Shown piece by piece: positions 2,470 to 8,761 of a stretch of 38,658 nt of DNA. Origin of the DNA: a virus. Location: IMG/VR virus record IMGVR_UViG_3300005076_000009. One strand, written 5' to 3'. Below the pieces are notes generated by a model that saw only the letters and a program-made list of their open reading frames with translations, was not told the origin of the DNA and did no database searches. Numbering within the stretch: position 1 is the stretch's first letter; each line of letters starts with the position of its first letter. Position numbers and translations under genes: made by a program.

Positions 2470-2577
2470 ATGCACCTAATTTTCATTCTGTTGCACCTGA
2501 TTTGCTTTTTCACTCTCCTGCCCGGTCTGGTAGTGACCATTCCGTTGCATATGATCTTTTTGAAGGTGGGTGGCTGA
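2470..2577 (+). CDS. 35-aa hydrophobic peptide (MHLIFILLHLICFFTLLPGLVVTIPLHMIFLKVGG)
   Basis: AAGGAG at 2456-2461 lies 8 nt before the ATG. Its TGA ends 1 nt before the ATG of the ParB-like gene. The ORF is below the 60-aa cutoff of the ORF track. Confidence 0.5.
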   Translation: MHLIFILLHLICFFTLLPGLVVTIPLHMIFLKVGG

Positions 2578-2578
2578 G

Positions 2579-3235
2579 ATGGACATTTCTAGCATCATTC
2601 AGCAGATTAAGGACTTGCCAATTGATGAGAAAGTTGAAGCTATCAATAGCATTCGTTCTCAGCTGCATGAGATTAGCCCATTCAAAACTGAGCCAGTTGA
2701 TTTTGTGCGATGGGTGAAGTCTGACAATGTTCACCAAAATGACTACAACCCGAACAGCGTGGCCCCGCCGGAAATGGAGCTTTTGCATCACTCTATTAAG
2801 AGTGATGGCTACACCCAGCCTATCGTGACGATGCCGCACGATGAGAAGTTCGAAGTAATTGACGGCTTTCATCGTCACAGGGTTGGAAAGGAGTGCCATG
2901 ACATTCAGCAGCGCGTGCACGGATACCTTCCGCTTGTCGCTGTTTCTGCAGATCGATTTGACAAGAACGATCGCATGGCAGCAACAATTCGCCACAACAG
3001 GGCTAGGGGCAAGCACAAAGTCGAAGCAATGTCTGACATTGTGGTTGAGCTTAAACGTCGATTCTGGAGCGATGAAAAAATTGCCAAGGAGCTGGGCATG
3101 GAGCCGGACGAAGTTCTGCGCTTGCAACAGGTAACCGGCCTGGCCACGCTTTTTGCTGATCGCGAGTTTTCCGAAGCGTGGGAAGCGGAATCGTTCACGG
3201 GTGATGACGAACAGGAAATGATTGATGAAGATTAA
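2579..3235 (+). CDS. ParB/Srx N-terminal-domain protein, IbrB-like
   Basis: YNPNSV...VIDGFHRH...RHNRARGKH motifs typical of ParB-like nuclease-domain proteins. The size and the pairing with a PAPS-reductase-family gene fit the family. The track start at 2570 is a GTG; I prefer ATG 2579, which is coupled to the upstream peptide. Confidence 0.7.
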   Translation: MDISSIIQQIKDLPIDEKVEAINSIRSQLHEISPFKTEPVDFVRWVKSDNVHQNDYNPNSVAPPEMELLHHSIKSDGYTQPIVTMPHDEKFEVIDGFHRHRVGKECHDIQQRVHGYLPLVAVSADRFDKNDRMAATIRHNRARGKHKVEAMSDIVVELKRRFWSDEKIAKELGMEPDEVLRLQQVTGLATLFADREFSEAWEAESFTGDDEQEMIDED

Positions 3236-3614
3236 GCGAGTTTTTCACAGGTGGGAGAAATGCGAAGAGTACAAAACAAACATGTGGAGATCGGTTCCAA
3301 TTGAGGCGCGAGACAGATATGTCACTGCATCCAGAAACTTGATGCTTGATTGCGAAGCTTTTGAGTCGGCGATGCGGCGTGCAGTTGATGAGTGGGTATT
3401 CTCGTGCGAGGCGGCACTGACCGCATCGACCATGAATCATCAGGCATGGATTGGGCATGCAGGATGCGCAATAAACCACAATGCCCCAGAAGATTTAACA
3501 AGGCAGGCATGGCGAATGCTGACAAAAGATCAGCAAGATAGGGCAAATGCAGCAGCCGATCGCGCCATAGCATACTGGAAAGACAAGTACATGAGGATGA
3601 TGAAAGATGCCTAA
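3225..3614 (+). CDS. Hypothetical protein (129 aa) embedded between the IbrB-like and IbrA-like genes
   Basis: ATG 3225 has AGGAA 6 nt upstream. It overlaps both neighbours. I recognise no motif. Confidence 0.6.
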   Translation: MKIKRVFHRWEKCEEYKTNMWRSVPIEARDRYVTASRNLMLDCEAFESAMRRAVDEWVFSCEAALTASTMNHQAWIGHAGCAINHNAPEDLTRQAWRMLTKDQQDRANAAADRAIAYWKDKYMRMMKDA

Positions 3615-4836
3615 ACGTGGAATTGGTATTGATGTTTTTACTGCGGCAAAGCAGCGTATCGAATGGACGTTTGACAACTTTGAGCGCATCTATCTTTCAT
3701 TTAGTGCTGGGAAAGACTCTGCTGTAATGCTGCACATGGTTATGGATGAGGCTGCGCGCAGGAATAGAAAGATCGGCGTATTCTTCATTGACTGGGAGTG
3801 CCAGATCGGACTTACCATCGATTTTGCCAAAGAAATGTACGAAAAGTACGCAGAATGGATCGAGCCGTACTGGGTTGCACTTCCAATCAAAACGTGGAAC
3901 ACATGCAGCCAGTACGAGCCTGAATGGACGGCATGGGATACGACAAAGCGTGATCTGTGGGTTCGCCAGCCTGAGAAGATCAGCATTACAGACATGGACT
4001 TTTTCCCGTTTTACTATGAGGGGATGCCGTTCGAGGAGTTTGTACCAGCATTTGGAGAATGGTATGCGCAGGGCAAGTCATGTGCTTGCTTTGTCGGCAT
4101 TCGCGCGGATGAAAGCTTGAACCGTTTCCGCACGGTTGCCAGGTCAGACAAGCCGACCATTGGTGGCAGGATGTGGACAACGAATGCCGTCGCCGATGTG
4201 TGGAACATTTACCCAATCTATGACTGGAAAACCGATGACATATGGACTTACTTCGGCAAAGAGCGCAGGCCGTACAACAAGCTTTATGACCGAATGTATC
4301 AGGCCGGTATGAAAATTAGCCAGATGCGGATATGCGAGCCGTTTGGCGACGAGGCGAGGAAGGGGCTGTGGCTTTATCAGGTGGTTGATCCTGCGATGTG
4401 GGCAAAAGTTTCGCTTCGAGTTGCTGGAGCCAACACCGGAATGCAGTACTGCCAGGAAAAGGGGGCCGTACTGGGCAATCATCACATTGCACTTCCGGAA
4501 GGCCACACGTACGAAAGTTTTGCCAATCACTTGCTGAATACCATGCCGCCAAGAACCGCAGAGCATTACAAAAACAAGCTGGCCGTATATCTGAAATGGT
4601 GGTCAAAGCGCGGATACGAGGATGGAATACCTGACTTTGCCGAAGTCAGACTAGAGAGTGCAGGGAAGGTGCCAAGCTGGCGAAAAATATGCAAAACCTT
4701 CCTGCGCAATGATTACTGGTGCAAAGGCTTGGGTTTTAGCCCAACAAAGAGCAGCGCATACCAAAAGTATACGGAGCTTATGAAGAAGCGACGCGCCGAG
4801 TGGGGAATTTTTAAGCCGGAGGACGCCCAGCTATGA
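3607..4836 (+). CDS. PAPS-reductase-family PP-loop ATP pyrophosphatase, IbrA-like (409 aa)
   Basis: SFSAGKDS PP-loop near the N-terminus and a long C-terminal extension, as in IbrA/DUF3440-type proteins. Confidence 0.75.
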   Translation: MPKRGIGIDVFTAAKQRIEWTFDNFERIYLSFSAGKDSAVMLHMVMDEAARRNRKIGVFFIDWECQIGLTIDFAKEMYEKYAEWIEPYWVALPIKTWNTCSQYEPEWTAWDTTKRDLWVRQPEKISITDMDFFPFYYEGMPFEEFVPAFGEWYAQGKSCACFVGIRADESLNRFRTVARSDKPTIGGRMWTTNAVADVWNIYPIYDWKTDDIWTYFGKERRPYNKLYDRMYQAGMKISQMRICEPFGDEARKGLWLYQVVDPAMWAKVSLRVAGANTGMQYCQEKGAVLGNHHIALPEGHTYESFANHLLNTMPPRTAEHYKNKLAVYLKWWSKRGYEDGIPDFAEVRLESAGKVPSWRKICKTFLRNDYWCKGLGFSPTKSSAYQKYTELMKKRRAEWGIFKPEDAQL

Positions 4837-6249: not shown

Positions 6250-6431
6250 TGAAATTCAAATCGTCACAACAGCGGCGCCATGACTACCTAGACATGATCG
6301 ACCGCCGGAGCCATTTCATGCTGCCGGAGCAGAAAGTACCTGGCGTTTCCGCCGACGTGGTGAAACGACGCAGGGAGTTGCAAGCGGCACGCGAGGAGCG
6401 CGTTCACACGCGGGAGGTGTGGGAGGAATGA
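6249..6431 (+). CDS. Hypothetical protein (60 aa)
   Basis: TAATG stop/start overlap with the upstream ORF. Confidence 0.5.
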   Translation: MKFKSSQQRRHDYLDMIDRRSHFMLPEQKVPGVSADVVKRRRELQAAREERVHTREVWEE

Positions 6432-6808
6432 GTTTGCAATGCTTGGTCAATCAGATACTTAACATGCCGGACAAGGCCGAGCCACCGCCCAAAAAGCCGA
6501 TGGCGAAAGGGTCGGCATCGGTGGCATACGCGAAAGCCATCAGATCCGGTGCGCTGACATACAGCGGTGCGTCATGTGTGCGGTGCGGAAGCTGCAAGCG
6601 GTACACAAAAAACCGCGCCTGCGTGCAGTGCGACAAGGCTGGCGGCGTGTACAAGAGCGAGTACACGCTGGCGCGTGAAAACAAGTCCAAGGCGAAAGCC
6701 AATGGCGATGCGACATATATTGGCAGGCCATGCAAAGAGTGCGGCGGCACTGAGCGTCGCACATCAACAAGCGATTGCATGGCATGTCAAAGAAAGGCGA
6801 AGAGATGA
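6428..6808 (+). CDS. Hypothetical protein with two CxxC..CxxC zinc-ribbon-like repeats
   Basis: ATGA overlap at 6428 with GGGAGG upstream. Repeats seen: CVRCGSC..CVQC and CKECGG..CMAC. Confidence 0.55.
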   Translation: MSLQCLVNQILNMPDKAEPPPKKPMAKGSASVAYAKAIRSGALTYSGASCVRCGSCKRYTKNRACVQCDKAGGVYKSEYTLARENKSKAKANGDATYIGRPCKECGGTERRTSTSDCMACQRKAKR

Positions 6809-7257
6809 AGAAGCGACACGTAGGAAATCCATTGCAAATGCTGGCCGGACAGCAGCCGCTAGGCGCATCGGCAGACGATCAAATCCTGCCATTCCTTCTG
6901 CACTTTGAAGAGGTGCGAGCCGGTTACGGTTACGGCGAGAGTATCCGCACCGTCACGATCTACCTGCACGCGATGCTGTCGTGCGTGAATAACACCGCCA
7001 CCAAGAAAAATGAAACCTTGGTTCGCTATATGGCAGAGGCTGGAAAGGCATGGATGGCGTGCGGAGAAAAGTCGGATGCGGCAGGGCTTGATGACCGCAT
7101 CGTGCTGACCGGCGACGCAATGCAGACCATCAGCCGAGCTATCCGCGTGTTCCTGATGGTAATGCCGCAGGTAAAACTGTACGTCTGGACGGGTGCCATT
7201 CTGCGCGCTGCCGAACTATGGCAACAGCGCGTTGATAGTGTGCAAAGGGCATGCTAA
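6805..7257 (+). CDS. Hypothetical protein (150 aa)
   Basis: ATGA overlap at 6805. I recognise no motif. Confidence 0.55.
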   Translation: MKKRHVGNPLQMLAGQQPLGASADDQILPFLLHFEEVRAGYGYGESIRTVTIYLHAMLSCVNNTATKKNETLVRYMAEAGKAWMACGEKSDAAGLDDRIVLTGDAMQTISRAIRVFLMVMPQVKLYVWTGAILRAAELWQQRVDSVQRAC

Positions 7258-7540: not shown

Positions 7541-7719
7541 ACAAGATCCCGACAACCGACGCGCTACTGCTGAAACCGGCCACCCGGTTTCCAGTACCGC
7601 CGCATGACAAGCTTATTGTCAGCAACAAAGCGCTGGGCGTTTCAATCATCGGCAAGTTTCAGCAAGGGTTCCATACGCACTGGTGCGAGTTGCCTAAATA
7701 CATGAGTGAGGAAGAATGA
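7534..7719 (+). CDS. Hypothetical protein (61 aa)
   Basis: AAGGAAG precedes ATG 7534, and the ORF overlaps the upstream stop. Confidence 0.5.
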   Translation: MVDKIPTTDALLLKPATRFPVPPHDKLIVSNKALGVSIIGKFQQGFHTHWCELPKYMSEEE

Positions 7720-7844
7720 CATACCTGCAAATCGCTGGAGCAATCGTAGCCGTAATCGCAACGCTGGGCGCTATCTTTCTGGCGTATCACGAAAAAGACG
7801 GCTGGGGCTGGTTGATCTTTTTGGCAACTGTGCCATTCCTTTGA
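7716..7844 (+). CDS. Small membrane protein (42 aa)
   Basis: ATGA overlap at 7716. The product MTYLQIAGAIVAVIATLGAIFLAYHEKDGWGWLIFLATVPFL has two hydrophobic segments. The ORF is below the track cutoff. Confidence 0.45.
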   Translation: MTYLQIAGAIVAVIATLGAIFLAYHEKDGWGWLIFLATVPFL

Positions 7845-7888
7845 AAACAACGACTCGCCGCTGATCGACATTGACATTAAAAAGACTG

Positions 7889-7917
7889 TTGACAGCAAGC
7901 AAACTATCAACTAACAT
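7889..7917 (+). promoter_or_regulatory. Sigma70-type promoter TTGACA-17-TAACAT
   Basis: -35 at 7889-7894 and -10 at 7912-7917. The spacer and -10 carry the 17-bp box that is also found at 31500-31516. Confidence 0.55.
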
Positions 7918-7923
7918 TGCTTT

Positions 7924-8450
7924 AACGCTGTCGGGTAAGCCGGACTTTTACAGGCTTAGTCTGTGAGGACTCGCCTCACCGAGCTGGGTAGGGCCAGCAC
8001 CAACACAAAGCCGGATATAACGCATAGGCACGAAAGTGTGCCCGTCAACCCCGTTCCAGTAGGGTGATGCGGTTAGGCTGGAACGGCTTTGTTGACAGCT
8101 CGGAAAGACGAGCACCCACACCCAGCAGCATTGCGGGCGTCAGTCATAAGGCCGTCCGGTGGGCAGTGTTGCTGGTTGTTGGTGACGCGCAGTGGCGATG
8201 CGCAAGTGAAAAGCTAAACGCAGGGCCATGAGAAAAACCGAGGCCACACCGATTTATCGGGATCGACACCCTGCAAGCCGGCAACTGCCAGCCGGCCACC
8301 AACAACAACCAATCGCCCACCATCCACGCATTGCAGCGCGTGCGCCACAGGGCTAAGTGTGGCGAACTCCTTCCCCGTCGGCACGGGGCAAGCCTGCGAA
8401 GCCGATACGGTGCTTGCTCTTAACATCCCCGCCACGTGCGGGGATTTTTT
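7924..8450 (+). ncRNA. Candidate structured noncoding RNA (about 530 nt, family unknown)
   Basis: The region is bounded by a promoter and a strong terminator, and no SD-led ORF is present. Hairpins include 8051-8059/8078-8086 (9 bp), 8343-8349/8358-8364 (7 bp), 8373-8378/8383-8388, 8388-8393/8412-8417 and 8027-8031/8038-8042. A 10-bp long-range pairing links 8175-8184 with 8297-8306. The 5' end is estimated only. Confidence 0.45.
8425..8450 (+). terminator. Rho-independent terminator ATCCCCGC-CACGT-GCGGGGAT-TTTTT
   Basis: An 8-bp perfect stem followed by a T-run, which is T-rich only on the + strand. Confidence 0.8.
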
Positions 8451-8461
8451 AGGTGGATAAC

Positions 8462-8734
8462 ATGCAATACATACACTTCACGGCGCTGATTTTCGGTTAC
8501 GCTGCTATGGCGCTAGCCGCATATTTCTTTGTCCTGCGCTGGCCGCTTCGCTTCTTGTCGCTAGTGCTGTTTCACATGGTTGCATATGCGCGTGCTGGAT
8601 ATTGGCGCATCCTGCACACGCTACCTGCTATGGTGTGGCGTAATGATGCGCGGCACCTGCGGGAATTGGTAGAGTGCAGCACGCTCAATATGACGTGGTG
8701 CGGCACGTTCAGGTGGAAGTTTCACCGCAAATAA
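8462..8734 (+). CDS. Small membrane protein (90 aa)
   Basis: AGGTGG lies 5 nt before ATG 8462. The protein has two hydrophobic helices and a basic C-terminus. Confidence 0.55.
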   Translation: MQYIHFTALIFGYAAMALAAYFFVLRWPLRFLSLVLFHMVAYARAGYWRILHTLPAMVWRNDARHLRELVECSTLNMTWCGTFRWKFHRK

Positions 8735-8761
8735 AAGGCCGGCGATTGCCGGCTTTTTTTT
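8733..8761. terminator. Bidirectional terminator AAAAGGCCGGC-GATT-GCCGGCTTTTTTTT
   Basis: A GC stem flanked by an A-run and a T-run, located between convergent genes. Confidence 0.8.

What the first reader, a model, noticed from the sequence alone, without database searches (positions are those of the whole stretch)
7889..8450. About 530-nt promoter-to-terminator unit without a credible ORF: candidate large structured phage ncRNA
Seen in the sequence:
- A TTGACA-17-TAACAT promoter lies at 7889-7917.
- A strong + strand terminator (8-bp GC stem plus T-run) lies at 8425-8450.
- About 600 bp between 7845 and 8461 have no ORF with a ribosome-binding site. The only + frame is a 54-codon ORF at 8067..8231 with rare codons and no spacing to any SD. 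The only listed ORF is an antisense 73-aa one.
- The region is dense in GC-rich stems: 8051-8059/8078-8086 (9 bp), 8343-8349/8358-8364 (7 bp), 8373-8378/8383-8388, 8388-8393/8412-8417, and 8027-8031/8038-8042 closing a 6-nt GAAAGU loop.
- CA-rich tracts at 7999-8007 and 8297-8306 can pair with the GU-rich tract at 8166-8184, including 10 bp between 8175-8184 and 8297-8306.

Inference: in a phage packed this tightly with overlapping genes, a noncoding block of this size with its own promoter and terminator is most simply a functional RNA. I cannot assign it to any known family. No tRNA cloverleaf, hammerhead core or tandem repeat was seen.
Basis: partly seen in the sequence, partly recalled or inferred. 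Interest (0 to 1): 0.75.

Follow-up and report, generated by a model that had tools for sequence, protein, structure and literature searches.

The report
tRNA-shaped phage RNA with leader hairpin
The gene-free block is a real noncoding RNA locus whose core folds like a tRNA but is invisible to tRNA finders, and it belongs to a widespread, unannotated family present in phage P1, Shiga-toxin phages and about one in six complete E. coli genomes.

Summary
The promoter (7889-7917), the terminator (8425-8450), the lack of a credible ORF and every listed stem are in the sequence.

This is a functional structured RNA locus, but it is modular rather than one large orphan RNA, and it does contain a cloverleaf.

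- **T-module (8178-8303).** A tRNA-shaped RNA with a 7-bp acceptor-like stem, a D-like hairpin, a T-like hairpin and a variable "anticodon" domain. The two hairpin loops pair with each other by Watson-Crick pairing.
  - On 60 homologues, 98.8% of pair cells are paired, 16 of 22 pairs show compensatory changes, and no shuffle of 500 reaches this.
  - Minimal members are 78-nt perfect cloverleaves.
- **Hairpin M (8093-8115).** UGACA-[stem]-GAAAGA-[stem]-AC. It recurs in viral contigs and in genomes of many phyla, with a freely covarying stem.
- **Stalk H1.** A 20-bp helix that competes with the acceptor stem for the same strand.

Rfam 15, ARAGORN and the database annotations seen do not recognise any of these. 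The function was not tested. My best guess is an early-expressed stable tRNA mimic matured by tRNA-processing enzymes. The main rival is a put-like antitermination element acting in cis.

The parts
7889..7917 (+). Sigma-70-type promoter, TTGACA-17 nt-TAACAT. Predicted start near 7924.
   Evidence: Consensus scan, 10 of 12 positions. Relatives L001, L003 and L072 have TTGACG-17-TATAGT directly upstream of their T-modules. No transcript data.
7985..8012 (+). M-like variant hairpin (CUGG-GUAGGG-CCAG) followed by a CA-rich tract (CACCAACACAAAGCCG).
   Evidence: Read from the sequence. The equivalent hairpin CUGG-GGAAGGG-CCAG plus CA tract in L026 sits at the M position in alignment A3.
8004..8087 (+). 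5' domain. A closing helix 8004-8012/8079-8087 encloses the hairpins 8027-8042 and 8051-8086.
   Evidence: Complementarity read from the sequence. Both hairpins appear in the minimum-free-energy fold. Not tested for covariation.
8093..8115 (+). Motif M: UGACA, stem G8098-G8102/C8109-C8113, loop GAAAGA (8103-8108), then AC.
   Evidence: Single exact match in the window; 0.08 matches expected by chance even at 2 mismatches. The same 23-mer occurs in 24 viral contigs and in cultured phages. With the 4 inner stem pairs left free, 107 of 122 viral hits are fully complementary, with at least 22 different stems.
8114..8183 (+). H1 stalk. 8114-8133 pairs with 8164-8183 (20 bp, 2 C-U mismatches), with an apical loop at 8134-8163. 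Its 3' strand overlaps the 5' strand of the acceptor-like stem.
   Evidence: Helix search starting at M's 'AC'. Equivalent helices of 13 or more pairs (up to 23), each with at most one mismatch, start at the same position in 27 other entries and have unrelated sequences.
8178..8303 (+). T-module, a tRNA-shaped RNA.
- Acceptor-like stem: 8178-8184/8297-8303
- Linker: AC
- H2: stem 8187-8191/8199-8203, loop GUGGCGA
- Variable domain: 8204-8276
- H3: stem 8277-8282/8291-8296, loop AACUGCCA
- Loop-loop pairing: U8193-G8197 with U8286-A8290
   Evidence: Covariance model R1 gives 51.2 bits, E about 6e-12, + strand only. Covariation on 60 homologues. RNAfold gives the cloverleaf. 77 of 78 homologues with a recognisable H3 have at least 6 of 7 acceptor pairs, with 33 distinct acceptor sequences.
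8304..8424 (+). 3' domain: a C/A-rich trailer, then hairpins 8343-8364, 8373-8388 and 8388-8417.
   Evidence: Stems verified in the sequence. Hairpin 8343-8364 is conserved after the class-2 T-modules of L003 and L001, with compensatory changes (CGCCACA/UGUGGCG versus CGCUCA/UGAGCG). A G-poor trailer is typical of the family.
8425..8450 (+). Intrinsic terminator: 8-bp stem, 6 of the pairs G-C, then UUUUUU.
   Evidence: Terminator scan. Family units in L001, L003, L005, phiPLPE and mEp460 also end at intrinsic terminators.
8462..8734 (+). Context, not part of the RNA. A 90-aa predicted membrane protein gene with an AGGTGG ribosome-binding site directly after the terminator, followed by a bidirectional terminator at 8733-8758.
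   Evidence: ORF list and scan. A 73%-identical homologue follows the RNA unit in L001. The gene is absent after the units of L003 and L005, where convergent genes follow instead.

Best explanation
Window 7889-8450 is a noncoding transcription unit read by the host sigma-70 RNA polymerase. It encodes a modular phage RNA.

**Shown**
- The core, 8178-8303, is a tRNA-shaped RNA (the "T-module"). A 7-bp acceptor-like stem closes a cloverleaf. The D-like hairpin H2 and the T-like hairpin H3 form the elbow through a 5-bp Watson-Crick loop-loop pairing instead of the canonical GG/T-psi-C contacts. The anticodon arm is replaced by a 73-nt branched domain.
- Upstream lies the conserved hairpin M, and directly abutting it a 20-bp stalk, H1. 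The 3' strand of H1 is the same GU-rich strand that forms the acceptor stem. H1 and the acceptor stem are therefore mutually exclusive.

**Inferred mechanism**
1. The unit is transcribed early.
2. H1 forms first during transcription and holds the acceptor strand.
3. Cleavage of the long duplex, of the kind RNase III makes, or simple refolding frees that strand to pair with the downstream CA tract.
4. The resulting tRNA-like fold is trimmed by tRNA-maturation enzymes (RNase P at the 5' end, exonucleases at the 3' end) into a stable RNA of about 126 nt.
5. The tRNA-like scaffold protects and presents the variable domain, and the RNA acts in trans as a tRNA mimic or scaffolded small RNA. Its target is unknown.

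M is a separate, portable leader element. It probably loads or positions a conserved host factor on the nascent RNA. Its partner is unknown.
For: **Structure**
- On 60 T-modules, 98.8% of pair cells are paired against 86.6% in shuffles. 16 of 22 pairs have changes on both sides, in 129 cells, and 0 of 500 shuffles reach this. Sliding the 3' partners drops pairing to 27-48%.
- The acceptor stem varies in 6 of its 7 pairs, with 33 distinct sequences including GGAGAGG/CCUCUCC and GAGCCGG/CCGGCUC.
- The loop-loop pairing switches between GCUGA/UCAGC, ACUGA/UCAGU and, in the window, UGGCG/UGCCA.
- Minimal members of 78-79 nt fold into clean cloverleaves.

**tRNA link**
- T-modules sit in tRNA clusters or directly after tRNAs in the P1 ban operon, P1-like plasmids, Klebsiella phage Magnus and phiEt88.
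- In L005, canonical D and T arms occupy the H2 and H3 positions; L072 has a canonical T arm and ARAGORN calls a tRNA-like gene there.
- U is preferred at position -1, and the 3' trailer is G-poor and ACC-like.

**Stand-alone RNA rather than a leader**
- The units in L003 and L005 end at a terminator followed by convergent genes.
- In L001, L003 and L072 a strong promoter sits just upstream of the acceptor stem.

**H1**
- Helices of 13 to 23 pairs with at most one mismatch start at M's 'AC' in 27 other entries.

**Noncoding**
- No Pfam or PHROG match. The model hits the + strand only.
Against: - No transcript, processing or binding data exist for any member. Every step after "it folds like this" is inference.
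- A CCA end is not conserved, and the elbow is non-canonical. RNase P and other enzymes that recognise the tRNA elbow may therefore not accept it.
- In lambdoid prophages (mEp460, an E. coli O157 prophage, E. coli 21AR0133) the element lies in the long leader of the early-left operon, upstream of an intrinsic terminator. That position fits a role in cis.
- Only 5 of 77 T-modules have M within 330 nt. The M/H1 maturation step therefore cannot be general.
- The homologue set was collected with exact H2 patterns and filtered on acceptor pairing. H2 conservation is by construction, and related sequences inflate the counts.
Confidence: 0.45

Rival explanations
1. A processive antitermination or anti-Rho RNA acting in cis, in the manner of HK022 put or the lambda and rRNA-operon nut sites. 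M, alone or with the T-module, would fold on the nascent transcript, stay bound to RNA polymerase or Nus factors, and carry the polymerase through downstream terminators and long untranslated stretches.
For: - In lambdoid prophages without an annotated N gene, the element lies in the 0.8-1 kb leader between the CI-like repressor's terminator and promoter region and the first early-left gene, where nutL or putL would be. An intrinsic terminator follows directly.
- In many phages M is followed within about 10 nt by a strong terminator and then genes.
- In L002, one copy lies just after a promoter and another after the first gene.
- M is nearly invariant across bacterial phyla. That fits a universal partner such as RNA polymerase or the Nus factors.
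- M often precedes untranslated RNAs such as tRNAs, which would need protection from Rho.
Against: - HK022 and HK639, the known put phages, have no M, and the sequences are unrelated.
- In this window only a 90-aa gene and a bidirectional terminator lie downstream. Termination-resistant polymerase would run antisense into the late genes.
- The units in L003 and L005 have no downstream gene at all.
- T-modules also occur downstream of a Q-like antiterminator gene (phiEt88) and inside tRNA clusters of virulent phages.
- A 7-bp acceptor-type closing stem has no obvious role in antitermination.
Confidence: 0.25
2. A local attenuator for the downstream 90-aa membrane protein gene. Alternative pairing of the GU strand with the upstream CA tract (H1) or the downstream CA tract (acceptor stem) would set how much transcription passes the terminator at 8425-8450.
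For: - The two helices are mutually exclusive, and both are conserved and covary.
- The terminator is followed immediately by a good ribosome-binding site and the gene.
- The same RNA-then-gene order occurs in L001.
Against: - The terminator hairpin shares no strand with the switching helices.
- The same modules occur with unrelated downstream genes, with tRNAs, or with nothing downstream.
- 72 of 77 T-modules have no M within 330 nt upstream, so most probably lack this M-anchored competing helix.
Confidence: 0.1
3. A counter-defence decoy. The tRNA-shaped RNA, the M hairpin, or both would mimic a host RNA and soak up a host tRNA-directed nuclease, transferase or sensor during early infection.
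For: - The RNA is tRNA-shaped but has a non-decoding anticodon domain.
- It lies in early operons or behind strong sigma-70 promoters.
- It is co-located with phage tRNA genes. That phage tRNAs often serve to replace tRNAs cleaved by host defences is general knowledge, not tested here.
- The family moves between unrelated phages like an accessory cargo element.
Against: - No defence or anti-defence gene is consistently nearby.
- The acceptor stem and the anticodon domain, the usual targets of tRNA-directed toxins, are the most variable parts.
Confidence: 0.12
4. The block is a decayed protein gene, or it encodes small proteins, and the apparent structure is incidental.
For: Short ORFs exist on both strands. 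Database records annotate small ORFs over homologous regions: plp and upl in P1, gp202-205 in Magnus, gp36 and gp37 in mEp460.
Against: - No Pfam or PHROG match.
- Homologues differ by indels of arbitrary length and by paired compensatory changes, not by third-codon-position changes.
- The annotated ORFs are not conserved between carriers, and several lie on the opposite strand from the structure-bearing strand.
Confidence: 0.02

Closest known systems
Transfer RNA (Rfam RF00005)
   Same: - Cloverleaf with a 7-bp closing acceptor stem.
- A short (2-3 nt) linker before the D-like arm.
- A 5-bp T-like stem that abuts the 3' acceptor strand directly.
- An elbow made by contact between the D and T loops.
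- Minimal members are 78 nt.
- Often co-transcribed with tRNAs.
   Different: - No conserved GG in the D loop and no UUCRA in the T loop. The elbow is a 5-bp Watson-Crick loop-loop helix instead.
- The anticodon arm is variable and can expand greatly (about 15-165 nt between the D-like and T-like arms).
- No conserved CCA.
- Not detected by ARAGORN or by the Rfam tRNA model.
Phage T4 stable RNAs, species 1 and 2 (rnaC, rnaD)
   Same: Phage-encoded RNAs annotated as small and stable, lying in the tRNA gene cluster. rnaC has a tRNA-type T arm. That their function is still unknown is my recollection, not something checked here.
   Different: No sequence or covariance-model similarity: model R1 finds nothing in the T4 region. 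No loop-loop Watson-Crick elbow is evident.
HK022/HK639 put antiterminator RNAs, and lambda nut boxB
   Same: - Position in the early-left leader of lambdoid prophages, upstream of terminators.
- M is a 5-bp hairpin with a purine-rich G-A loop, which resembles boxB.
- No dedicated protein gene is seen nearby, as for put.
   Different: - No sequence similarity, and M is absent from HK022 and HK639.
- put is a two-stem V-shaped RNA of about 70 nt (PMC9378689).
- The present modules also occur where antitermination makes no sense.
P1 c4 and P4 CI immunity RNAs
   Same: - Small phage RNAs cut out of a leader transcript. I recall that RNase P does this because they mimic an acceptor stem; this was not checked here.
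- The P4 CI RNA has complementary sequences both upstream and downstream on the same transcript, like the CA1-GU-CA2 arrangement here.
   Different: - No match to the Rfam C4 model, and no M in P4.
- Here the complementary tracts form the RNA's own closing stem rather than target sites.
- P1 carries T-modules in its ban operon, which in my recollection is a different locus from c4.
Bacterial Y RNAs (YrlA), which have a tRNA-like domain
   Same: A noncoding RNA with a tRNA-mimicking domain. Also found in phages according to the literature as I recall it.
   Different: - In YrlA the RNA ends form the Ro-binding stem, and the acceptor-like stem is closed by a loop.
- No Ro60/Rsr gene in the window.
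- No Rfam hit.

Membership tests
T-module (tRNA-shaped phage RNA family, defined here) | A 7-bp closing (acceptor-like) helix whose 3' strand directly follows H3. | tested here: met
   8178-8184 pairs with 8297-8303 and is extendable to 10 bp. The helix covaries across the family.
T-module (tRNA-shaped phage RNA family, defined here) | H2 and H3 hairpins whose loops are complementary to each other. | tested here: met
   H2 is GCGCA-GUGGCGA-UGCGC and H3 is GCCGGC-AACUGCCA-GCCGGC. UGGCG pairs with UGCCA. This is the class-2 variant, shared with L001, L003, L026 and L072.
T-module (tRNA-shaped phage RNA family, defined here) | Significant score against the family covariance model. | tested here: met
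   51.2 bits, E about 6e-12, + strand only. Caveat: the window copy is 1 of the 60 sequences used to build the model.
M hairpin motif (defined here) | UGACA, then a 5-bp stem, a GAAAGA loop, the other stem strand, then AC. | tested here: met
   Exact match at 8093-8115. The family's stem covaries.
tRNA | Cloverleaf with a 7-bp acceptor stem. | tested here: met
   RNAfold on the window copy and on minimal members.
tRNA | Conserved D-loop GG and T-loop UUCRA, and recognition by tRNA models. | tested here: not met
   ARAGORN finds 0 genes in the window. There is no Rfam tRNA hit even at E<=10. The loops are GUGGCGA and AACUGCCA.
tRNA | A 7-nt anticodon loop on a 5-bp stem. | tested here: not met
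   The window has a 73-nt branched domain instead.
tRNA | Aminoacylation and CCA addition. | not testable with these tools
   CCA is not encoded in the window (CACCAAC-AACA). The family's trailer is only loosely ACC-like.
Known large or ornate RNAs and any other Rfam 15 family (GOLLD, ROOL, HEARO, OLE, raiA, C4, Y RNA, tmRNA and others) | Match to the family's covariance model. | tested here: not met
   No hit at the gathering score in the whole window. Only two chance-level hits at E<=10 in 7700-8600. None at the copies in phiPLPE and phiEt88.
HK022-type put antiterminator RNA | Sequence or structure similarity to putL or putR. | tested here: not met
   M is absent from HK022 and HK639 at up to 3 mismatches. 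The annotated putL-like RNA of HK639 is unrelated.
HK022-type put antiterminator RNA | Acts in cis on RNA polymerase to suppress termination. | not testable with these tools
   The only evidence is positional: the early-left leader in three lambdoid prophages.
T4 species 1 and 2 RNAs | Homology to rnaC or rnaD. | tested here: not met
   Model R1 finds nothing in the T4 tRNA/rnaC/rnaD region.

The most novel reading that the evidence does not exclude
The window carries two RNA elements that have not been described before.

1. A widespread class of phage RNAs that keep the tRNA L-shape but rebuild the elbow with a Watson-Crick loop-loop helix, and use the anticodon position as a cargo slot. It is present in P1, Stx phages, Ackermannviridae and about 17% of complete E. 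coli genomes.
2. A 23-nt leader hairpin (UGACA-stem-GAAAGA-stem-AC) conserved from Proteobacteria to Clostridia, Bacteroidales and Spirochaetes. It would mark nascent phage RNAs for a universal host machine: RNA polymerase or Nus factors (a protein-free antitermination system much broader than put), or an RNA-processing enzyme.
Probability: 0.4. Interest if true: 0.85.

Novelty: new variant of a known kind. Interest (0 to 1): 0.75.

Why it matters
**Distribution.** T-module matches occur in 127 cultured-phage records, 288 plasmid records that are mostly P1-like, and 938 of 5,426 complete E. coli genomes. In every row I inspected, the region is either unannotated or covered by doubtful small ORFs.

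**If it is a stable tRNA mimic.** It would be a new way to build the tRNA shape, and a natural tRNA scaffold for cargo RNA. It would also give a testable handle on why phages carry tRNA-like stable RNAs at all, a question that, as I recall, dates back to the T4 species 1 and 2 RNAs.

**If M, the T-module or both act on RNA polymerase.** RNA-only antitermination, so far known only from HK022-type put, would turn out to be common and to cross phylum boundaries.

**Testability.** Both readings can be tested directly in P1 and in E. coli prophages.

**Annotation.** Several annotated small ORFs in model phages are probably wrong, and tRNA finders miss this whole class.

Tried and rejected
**RNA family searches**
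- Rfam at the gathering score and at relaxed thresholds on the window and on two cultured-phage copies: nothing.
- ARAGORN: no tRNA or tmRNA, including permuted tmRNA.
- Model R1 against T4 rnaC/rnaD: no homology.

**Sequence similarity searches**
- blastn of the whole block against cultured phages: no match at E<=1e-5.
- At E<=10 with a sub-region, only the M motif matched.
- One E. coli search used wrong coordinates and was wasted.

**Known phage RNA systems**
- HK022 put: M is absent, and a shared 'CCTGACAGC' is coincidental.
- HK639 putL-like and M3-like RNAs: unrelated.
- P4 CI RNA: no M.
- Prophage Pas sRNAs: these lie in a different locus, the Q-lysis region.

**A partner protein**
- All-against-all comparison of ORFs within 4 kb of M in 41 loci: no shared family beyond close relatives.
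- Downstream genes are heterogeneous.
- Ro60/Rsr partner for a Y RNA: none in the window.

**Alternative readings of M**
- M as a sigma-70 promoter, since its TGACA resembles a -35 box. Rejected because tRNAs start 1-10 nt after M and clear promoters lie upstream of it.
- M as part of a hammerhead, an HDV-like ribozyme, a K-turn or C/D box, a CsrA site, or a mimic of 16S helix 35 or the RNase P P4 helix. I considered these from memory. Core residues do not fit, or the resemblance is too short to mean anything. None was pursued.

**Literature**
- Searches for the motif sequences and for relevant keywords: no paper describes these elements.
- One possibly relevant 2026 preprint could not be read.

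**Coding potential**
- No family match for any ORF in the block.
Full report
**1. The observation.**

The window is a phage-like genome of 38.7 kb and about 56% G+C. Replication and early genes run on the + strand up to 8734: a Cas4-type exonuclease, a helicase, a ParB-like protein, a PAPS-reductase-like protein and a dUTPase. Lysis, tail and head genes converge on the - strand from 8760.

- The promoter TTGACA-17-TAACAT is at 7889-7917, and the terminator at 8425-8445 is followed by a T run.
- There is no + strand ORF longer than 55 aa. An antisense 73-aa ORF is present.
- All the listed stems are complementary, including the 10-bp pairing 8175-8184/8297-8306.
- The predicted fold of 7924-8450 is more stable than all 100 shuffles (z = -4.15), although the minus strand also gives -3.36.
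- None of the short ORFs matches Pfam or PHROGs.
- No Rfam 15 family matches, at the gathering score or at E<=10. ARAGORN finds no tRNA or tmRNA.

**2. Finding relatives.**

blastn of the block against 50,697 phage records found nothing. The 90-aa protein encoded just downstream led to a viral contig, L001. There its 73%-identical homologue is preceded by about 900 nt of noncoding DNA that shares short, sharply bounded islands with the window.

Two of these islands were used as exact search words.
- GACAGCTCGGAAAGACGAGCACC (window 8094-8116) occurs in 24 viral contigs. It also occurs in unannotated intergenic DNA of cultured phages: Iodobacter phage phiPLPE, Erwinia phage phiEt88 and many Vibrio phages.
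- GGTGACGCGCAGTGGCGATG occurs in 4 contigs.

Reading these loci side by side showed a recurrent architecture. I call its parts M, H1 and the T-module.

**3. The T-module (window 8178-8303).**

The layout is as follows.
- Seven bases, GUUGGUG (8178-8184), pair with CACCAAC (8297-8303).
- Two bases after the 5' strand comes hairpin H2 (stem 8187-8191/8199-8203, loop GUGGCGA).
- Directly before the 3' strand comes hairpin H3 (stem 8277-8282/8291-8296, loop AACUGCCA).
- Between them is a 73-nt branched domain.
- The H2 and H3 loops are complementary: UGGCG 8193-8197 pairs with UGCCA 8286-8290.

This is the connectivity of a tRNA: an acceptor stem, a short linker, a D arm, an anticodon arm, and a T arm that abuts the acceptor 3' strand. 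The difference is that the elbow is made by a Watson-Crick loop-loop helix.

There are two co-varying classes.
- Class 1: H2 loop GGCUGA with H3 loop AGAUCAGCA, pairing GCUGA/UCAGC. In phiPLPE the pairing is ACUGA/UCAGU.
- Class 2, which includes the window: GUGGCGA with AACUGCCA.

Among 133 distinct H2 instances:
- 78 had a recognisable H3 hairpin;
- 77 of those 78 had at least 6 of 7 acceptor pairs;
- there were 33 different acceptor sequences, as unlike each other as UGUGGUG/CACCACA, GGAGAGG/CCUCUCC, GCAGAUG/CAUCUGC and GAGCCGG/CCGGCUC.

Module length runs from 78 to about 230 nt. The 78-79-nt members fold by RNAfold alone into textbook cloverleaves, and the window copy gives the same fold with an expanded middle domain.

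On a 60-sequence alignment (A2), the 22 pairs of the four helices behave as follows:
- 98.8% of cells are paired, against 86.6% in shuffles;
- 16 pairs have changes on both sides, in 129 cells;
- 0 of 500 shuffles reach any of the five measures;
- sliding the 3' partners by 1-3 columns drops pairing to 27-48%;
- the acceptor helix has compensatory changes in 6 of 7 pairs, the loop-loop helix in 3 of 5, and H3 in 4 of 5.

Three caveats apply. H2 was fixed by the search word. Members were filtered on acceptor pairing, although 77 of 78 passed. Many sequences are related.

A covariance model built from A2 finds exactly one copy in the window, at 8174-8308 on the + strand, with 51.2 bits.

**4. 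Motif M (8093-8115) and stalk H1 (8114-8183).**

M reads UGACA, a 5-bp stem, the loop GAAAGA, the other stem strand, then AC.

A scan of one genome per species with a slightly degenerate M word gave 56 loci. They come from Proteobacteria, Clostridia, Bacteroidales, Spirochaetes, Acidobacteria and others. Most are intergenic, in the same orientation as the downstream gene, and preceded by YUGR. One hit is a CRISPR spacer.

I then left the four inner stem pairs free (TGACAG-N4-GAAAGA-N4-CAC). In 107 of 122 hits all four free pairs were complementary, where roughly 2% would be expected by chance, and at least 22 different stems were used. M is therefore a hairpin with an invariant loop and flanks and a freely covarying stem.

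What follows M varies:
- a tRNA starting 1-10 nt later (6 cases);
- an intrinsic terminator about 10 nt later;
- a ribosome-binding site and gene 15-40 nt later;
- a long helix, H1, that starts at M's own 'AC', with 13-23 pairs and at most one mismatch, in 27 entries besides the window.

In the window, H1 pairs 8114-8133 with 8164-8183. It has 20 positions with two C-U mismatches. Its 3' strand overlaps the acceptor 5' strand, so H1 and the acceptor stem cannot coexist.

In each lineage examined, the GU strand matches both CA tracts, and all three change together (window, L026, phiEt88, L007). Only 5 of 77 T-modules have M within 330 nt. M/H1 and the T-module are therefore separable modules.

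The window also has an M-like variant hairpin with its own CA tract at 7985-8012. It resembles the hairpin that occupies the M position in L026. A 3' hairpin at 8343-8364 recurs with compensatory changes after the class-2 modules of L003 and L001.

**5. Where the family lives.**

The class-1 T-module of phiEt88 matches:
- 127 cultured-phage records, including Klebsiella, Escherichia (with Stx2 phages and mEp460), Salmonella, Aeromonas and Hafnia phages;
- 938 of 5,426 complete E. coli genomes.

The mEp460 copy matches 288 plasmids, mostly non-mobilizable records of about 90-100 kb; the one I inspected carries the IncY replicon of the P1 family. In every row I inspected, the region is unannotated or overlapped by small hypothetical ORFs.

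The contexts are these.
- **Phage P1.** Two copies, of 58.9 and 29.4 bits, lie on the + strand of the C1-controlled ban operon between trnT and tciA. They overlap the predicted antisense ORFs plp and upl.
- **A P1-like plasmid.** An array reads tRNA-Asn, tRNA-Thr, then several H1-plus-T units and variants (two score with the model), then a terminator.
- **Klebsiella phage Magnus** (Ackermannviridae). The module lies upstream of tRNA-Met and tRNA-Arg, among 30-45-aa "genes".
- **phiEt88.** It lies downstream of a Q-like gene and a terminator, directly before a tRNA.
- **mEp460, an O157:H7 prophage and E. coli 21AR0133.** It lies in the 0.8-1 kb noncoding leader between the CI-like repressor gene and the first early-left gene, and is followed by an intrinsic terminator.
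- **L003 and L005**, close relatives of the window. The RNA unit ends at a terminator and convergent genes follow, so it is not merely a leader.
- **L001, L003 and L072.** A TTGACG-17-TATAGT promoter sits just upstream of the acceptor strand.
- **L005.** The H2 and H3 positions carry canonical D and T arms; L072 has a canonical T arm in the H3 position. This ties the family to tRNA ancestry.

**6. What it most likely is and does.**

Shown: this is a strand-specific, noncoding, modular RNA locus whose core is a tRNA-shaped RNA with strong covariation support.

Inferred:
- It is expressed early by the host polymerase.
- The long H1 duplex, when present, sequesters the acceptor strand until it is cleaved or refolded. 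Duplexes of about 20 bp or more are the kind RNase III cuts.
- The cloverleaf is then trimmed by tRNA-maturation enzymes into a stable RNA that acts in trans, with the variable domain as the specific part. Supporting hints are the preference for U at -1 and the G-poor, ACC-like trailer, and the co-location with tRNAs.

I give this about 0.45.

The main rival, at about 0.25, is a put- or nut-like processive antitermination or anti-Rho element acting in cis.
- For it: the early-left-leader position in N-less lambdoid prophages, the frequent M-then-terminator-then-genes layout, and M's near invariance across phyla.
- Against it: M is absent from the known put phages; units exist with nothing downstream; and in this window a termination-resistant polymerase would run antisense into the late genes.

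Three lesser rivals remain: a local attenuator for the 90-aa gene, a counter-defence decoy, and coding sequence.

**7. Comparison with known things, and novelty.**

The element works like, and probably descends from, tRNA. It fails the tRNA membership tests on loop signatures, on the anticodon loop and on model recognition.

The nearest functional analogues are the T4 species 1 and 2 stable RNAs, which show no homology, and the RNase-P-processed P1 c4 and P4 CI RNAs, which show no model match. By position it resembles put or nut, without any sequence or structural similarity.

I found no paper or database entry describing either the T-module or M. The literature tool covers only open-access text, so prior description cannot be excluded.

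I classify it as a new variant of a known kind: a tRNA-like phage RNA. It comes with an accompanying leader motif, M, whose kind is not yet known.

Noticed in passing
L082 (Faecousia sp. MAG, JAXECZ010000100.1), around 6660-6720: A CRISPR array (repeat ATTTCAATCCACGCTCCCCGTGGGGGGAGCGAC) carries a spacer, TGGCAGCCCGGAAAGACGGGCACCTGTAGTAGC, that contains the M hairpin. The host therefore targets this conserved phage motif.
   Followed up: partly
L330 (phage P1, NC_005856), record positions 69472-70041: The predicted genes plp and upl lie antisense to two T-modules that score well against the model, in the ban operon. They are probably annotation artefacts over an RNA array. The same applies to the tiny ORFs gp202-205 of Klebsiella phage Magnus (L327) and gp36/gp37 of mEp460 (L325).
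   Followed up: partly
L027 (phage HK022), 33579-33695, + strand: A weak T-module-like hit (17.8 bits) in the nin region, with an H2-like hairpin GCGAA-GGACGGA-UUCGC. It may be a divergent family member or chance.
   Followed up: no
L010, 3884-3986; L005 and L072, downstream of M: tRNA-like genes with canonical tRNA arms but large inserts in the anticodon region. The L010 copy has a 48-nt insert, scores 36 bits against Rfam tRNA, and sits on top of an extended stem. ARAGORN finds none in L005, misses the insert-bearing L010 copy, and calls the L072 one 'tRNA-???'. They look like intermediates between true tRNAs and T-modules.
   Followed up: partly
L067 (Morganella), L083 (Serratia) and L088 position 3800; mEp460 (L325) about 2910-2935: Tandem or variant M-like hairpins with related loops (GGAAAGAC, GGGAAGAC, GGAAGAGAC), sometimes three in a row. 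M may belong to a broader hairpin family that acts in arrays.
   Followed up: no
window 8462-8734 and 8733-8758: A conserved 90-aa predicted membrane protein with no family match begins directly after the RNA's terminator. It is followed by a bidirectional terminator that separates the + strand early genes from the - strand late genes.
   Followed up: partly
window 2570-4836: Adjacent genes for a ParB-like nuclease-domain protein and a PAPS-reductase/DUF3440 protein. Together they look like a DNA-modification module rather than partition or sulfur metabolism.
   Followed up: no
window 6419-6808: A 129-aa protein with two Cys-rich repeats (CxxC...CxxC) that matches only PHROGs of unknown function. 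Its ORF overlaps the start of the next ORF (6775-7257). It could be a zinc-finger regulator of the kind that controls late transcription.
   Followed up: no
L330 (phage P1), record positions 68791-68892: The P1 record annotates a 'dicF-like region' in the same ban-operon leader, upstream of the tRNAs and T-modules. This leader therefore carries several RNA elements in series.
   Followed up: no
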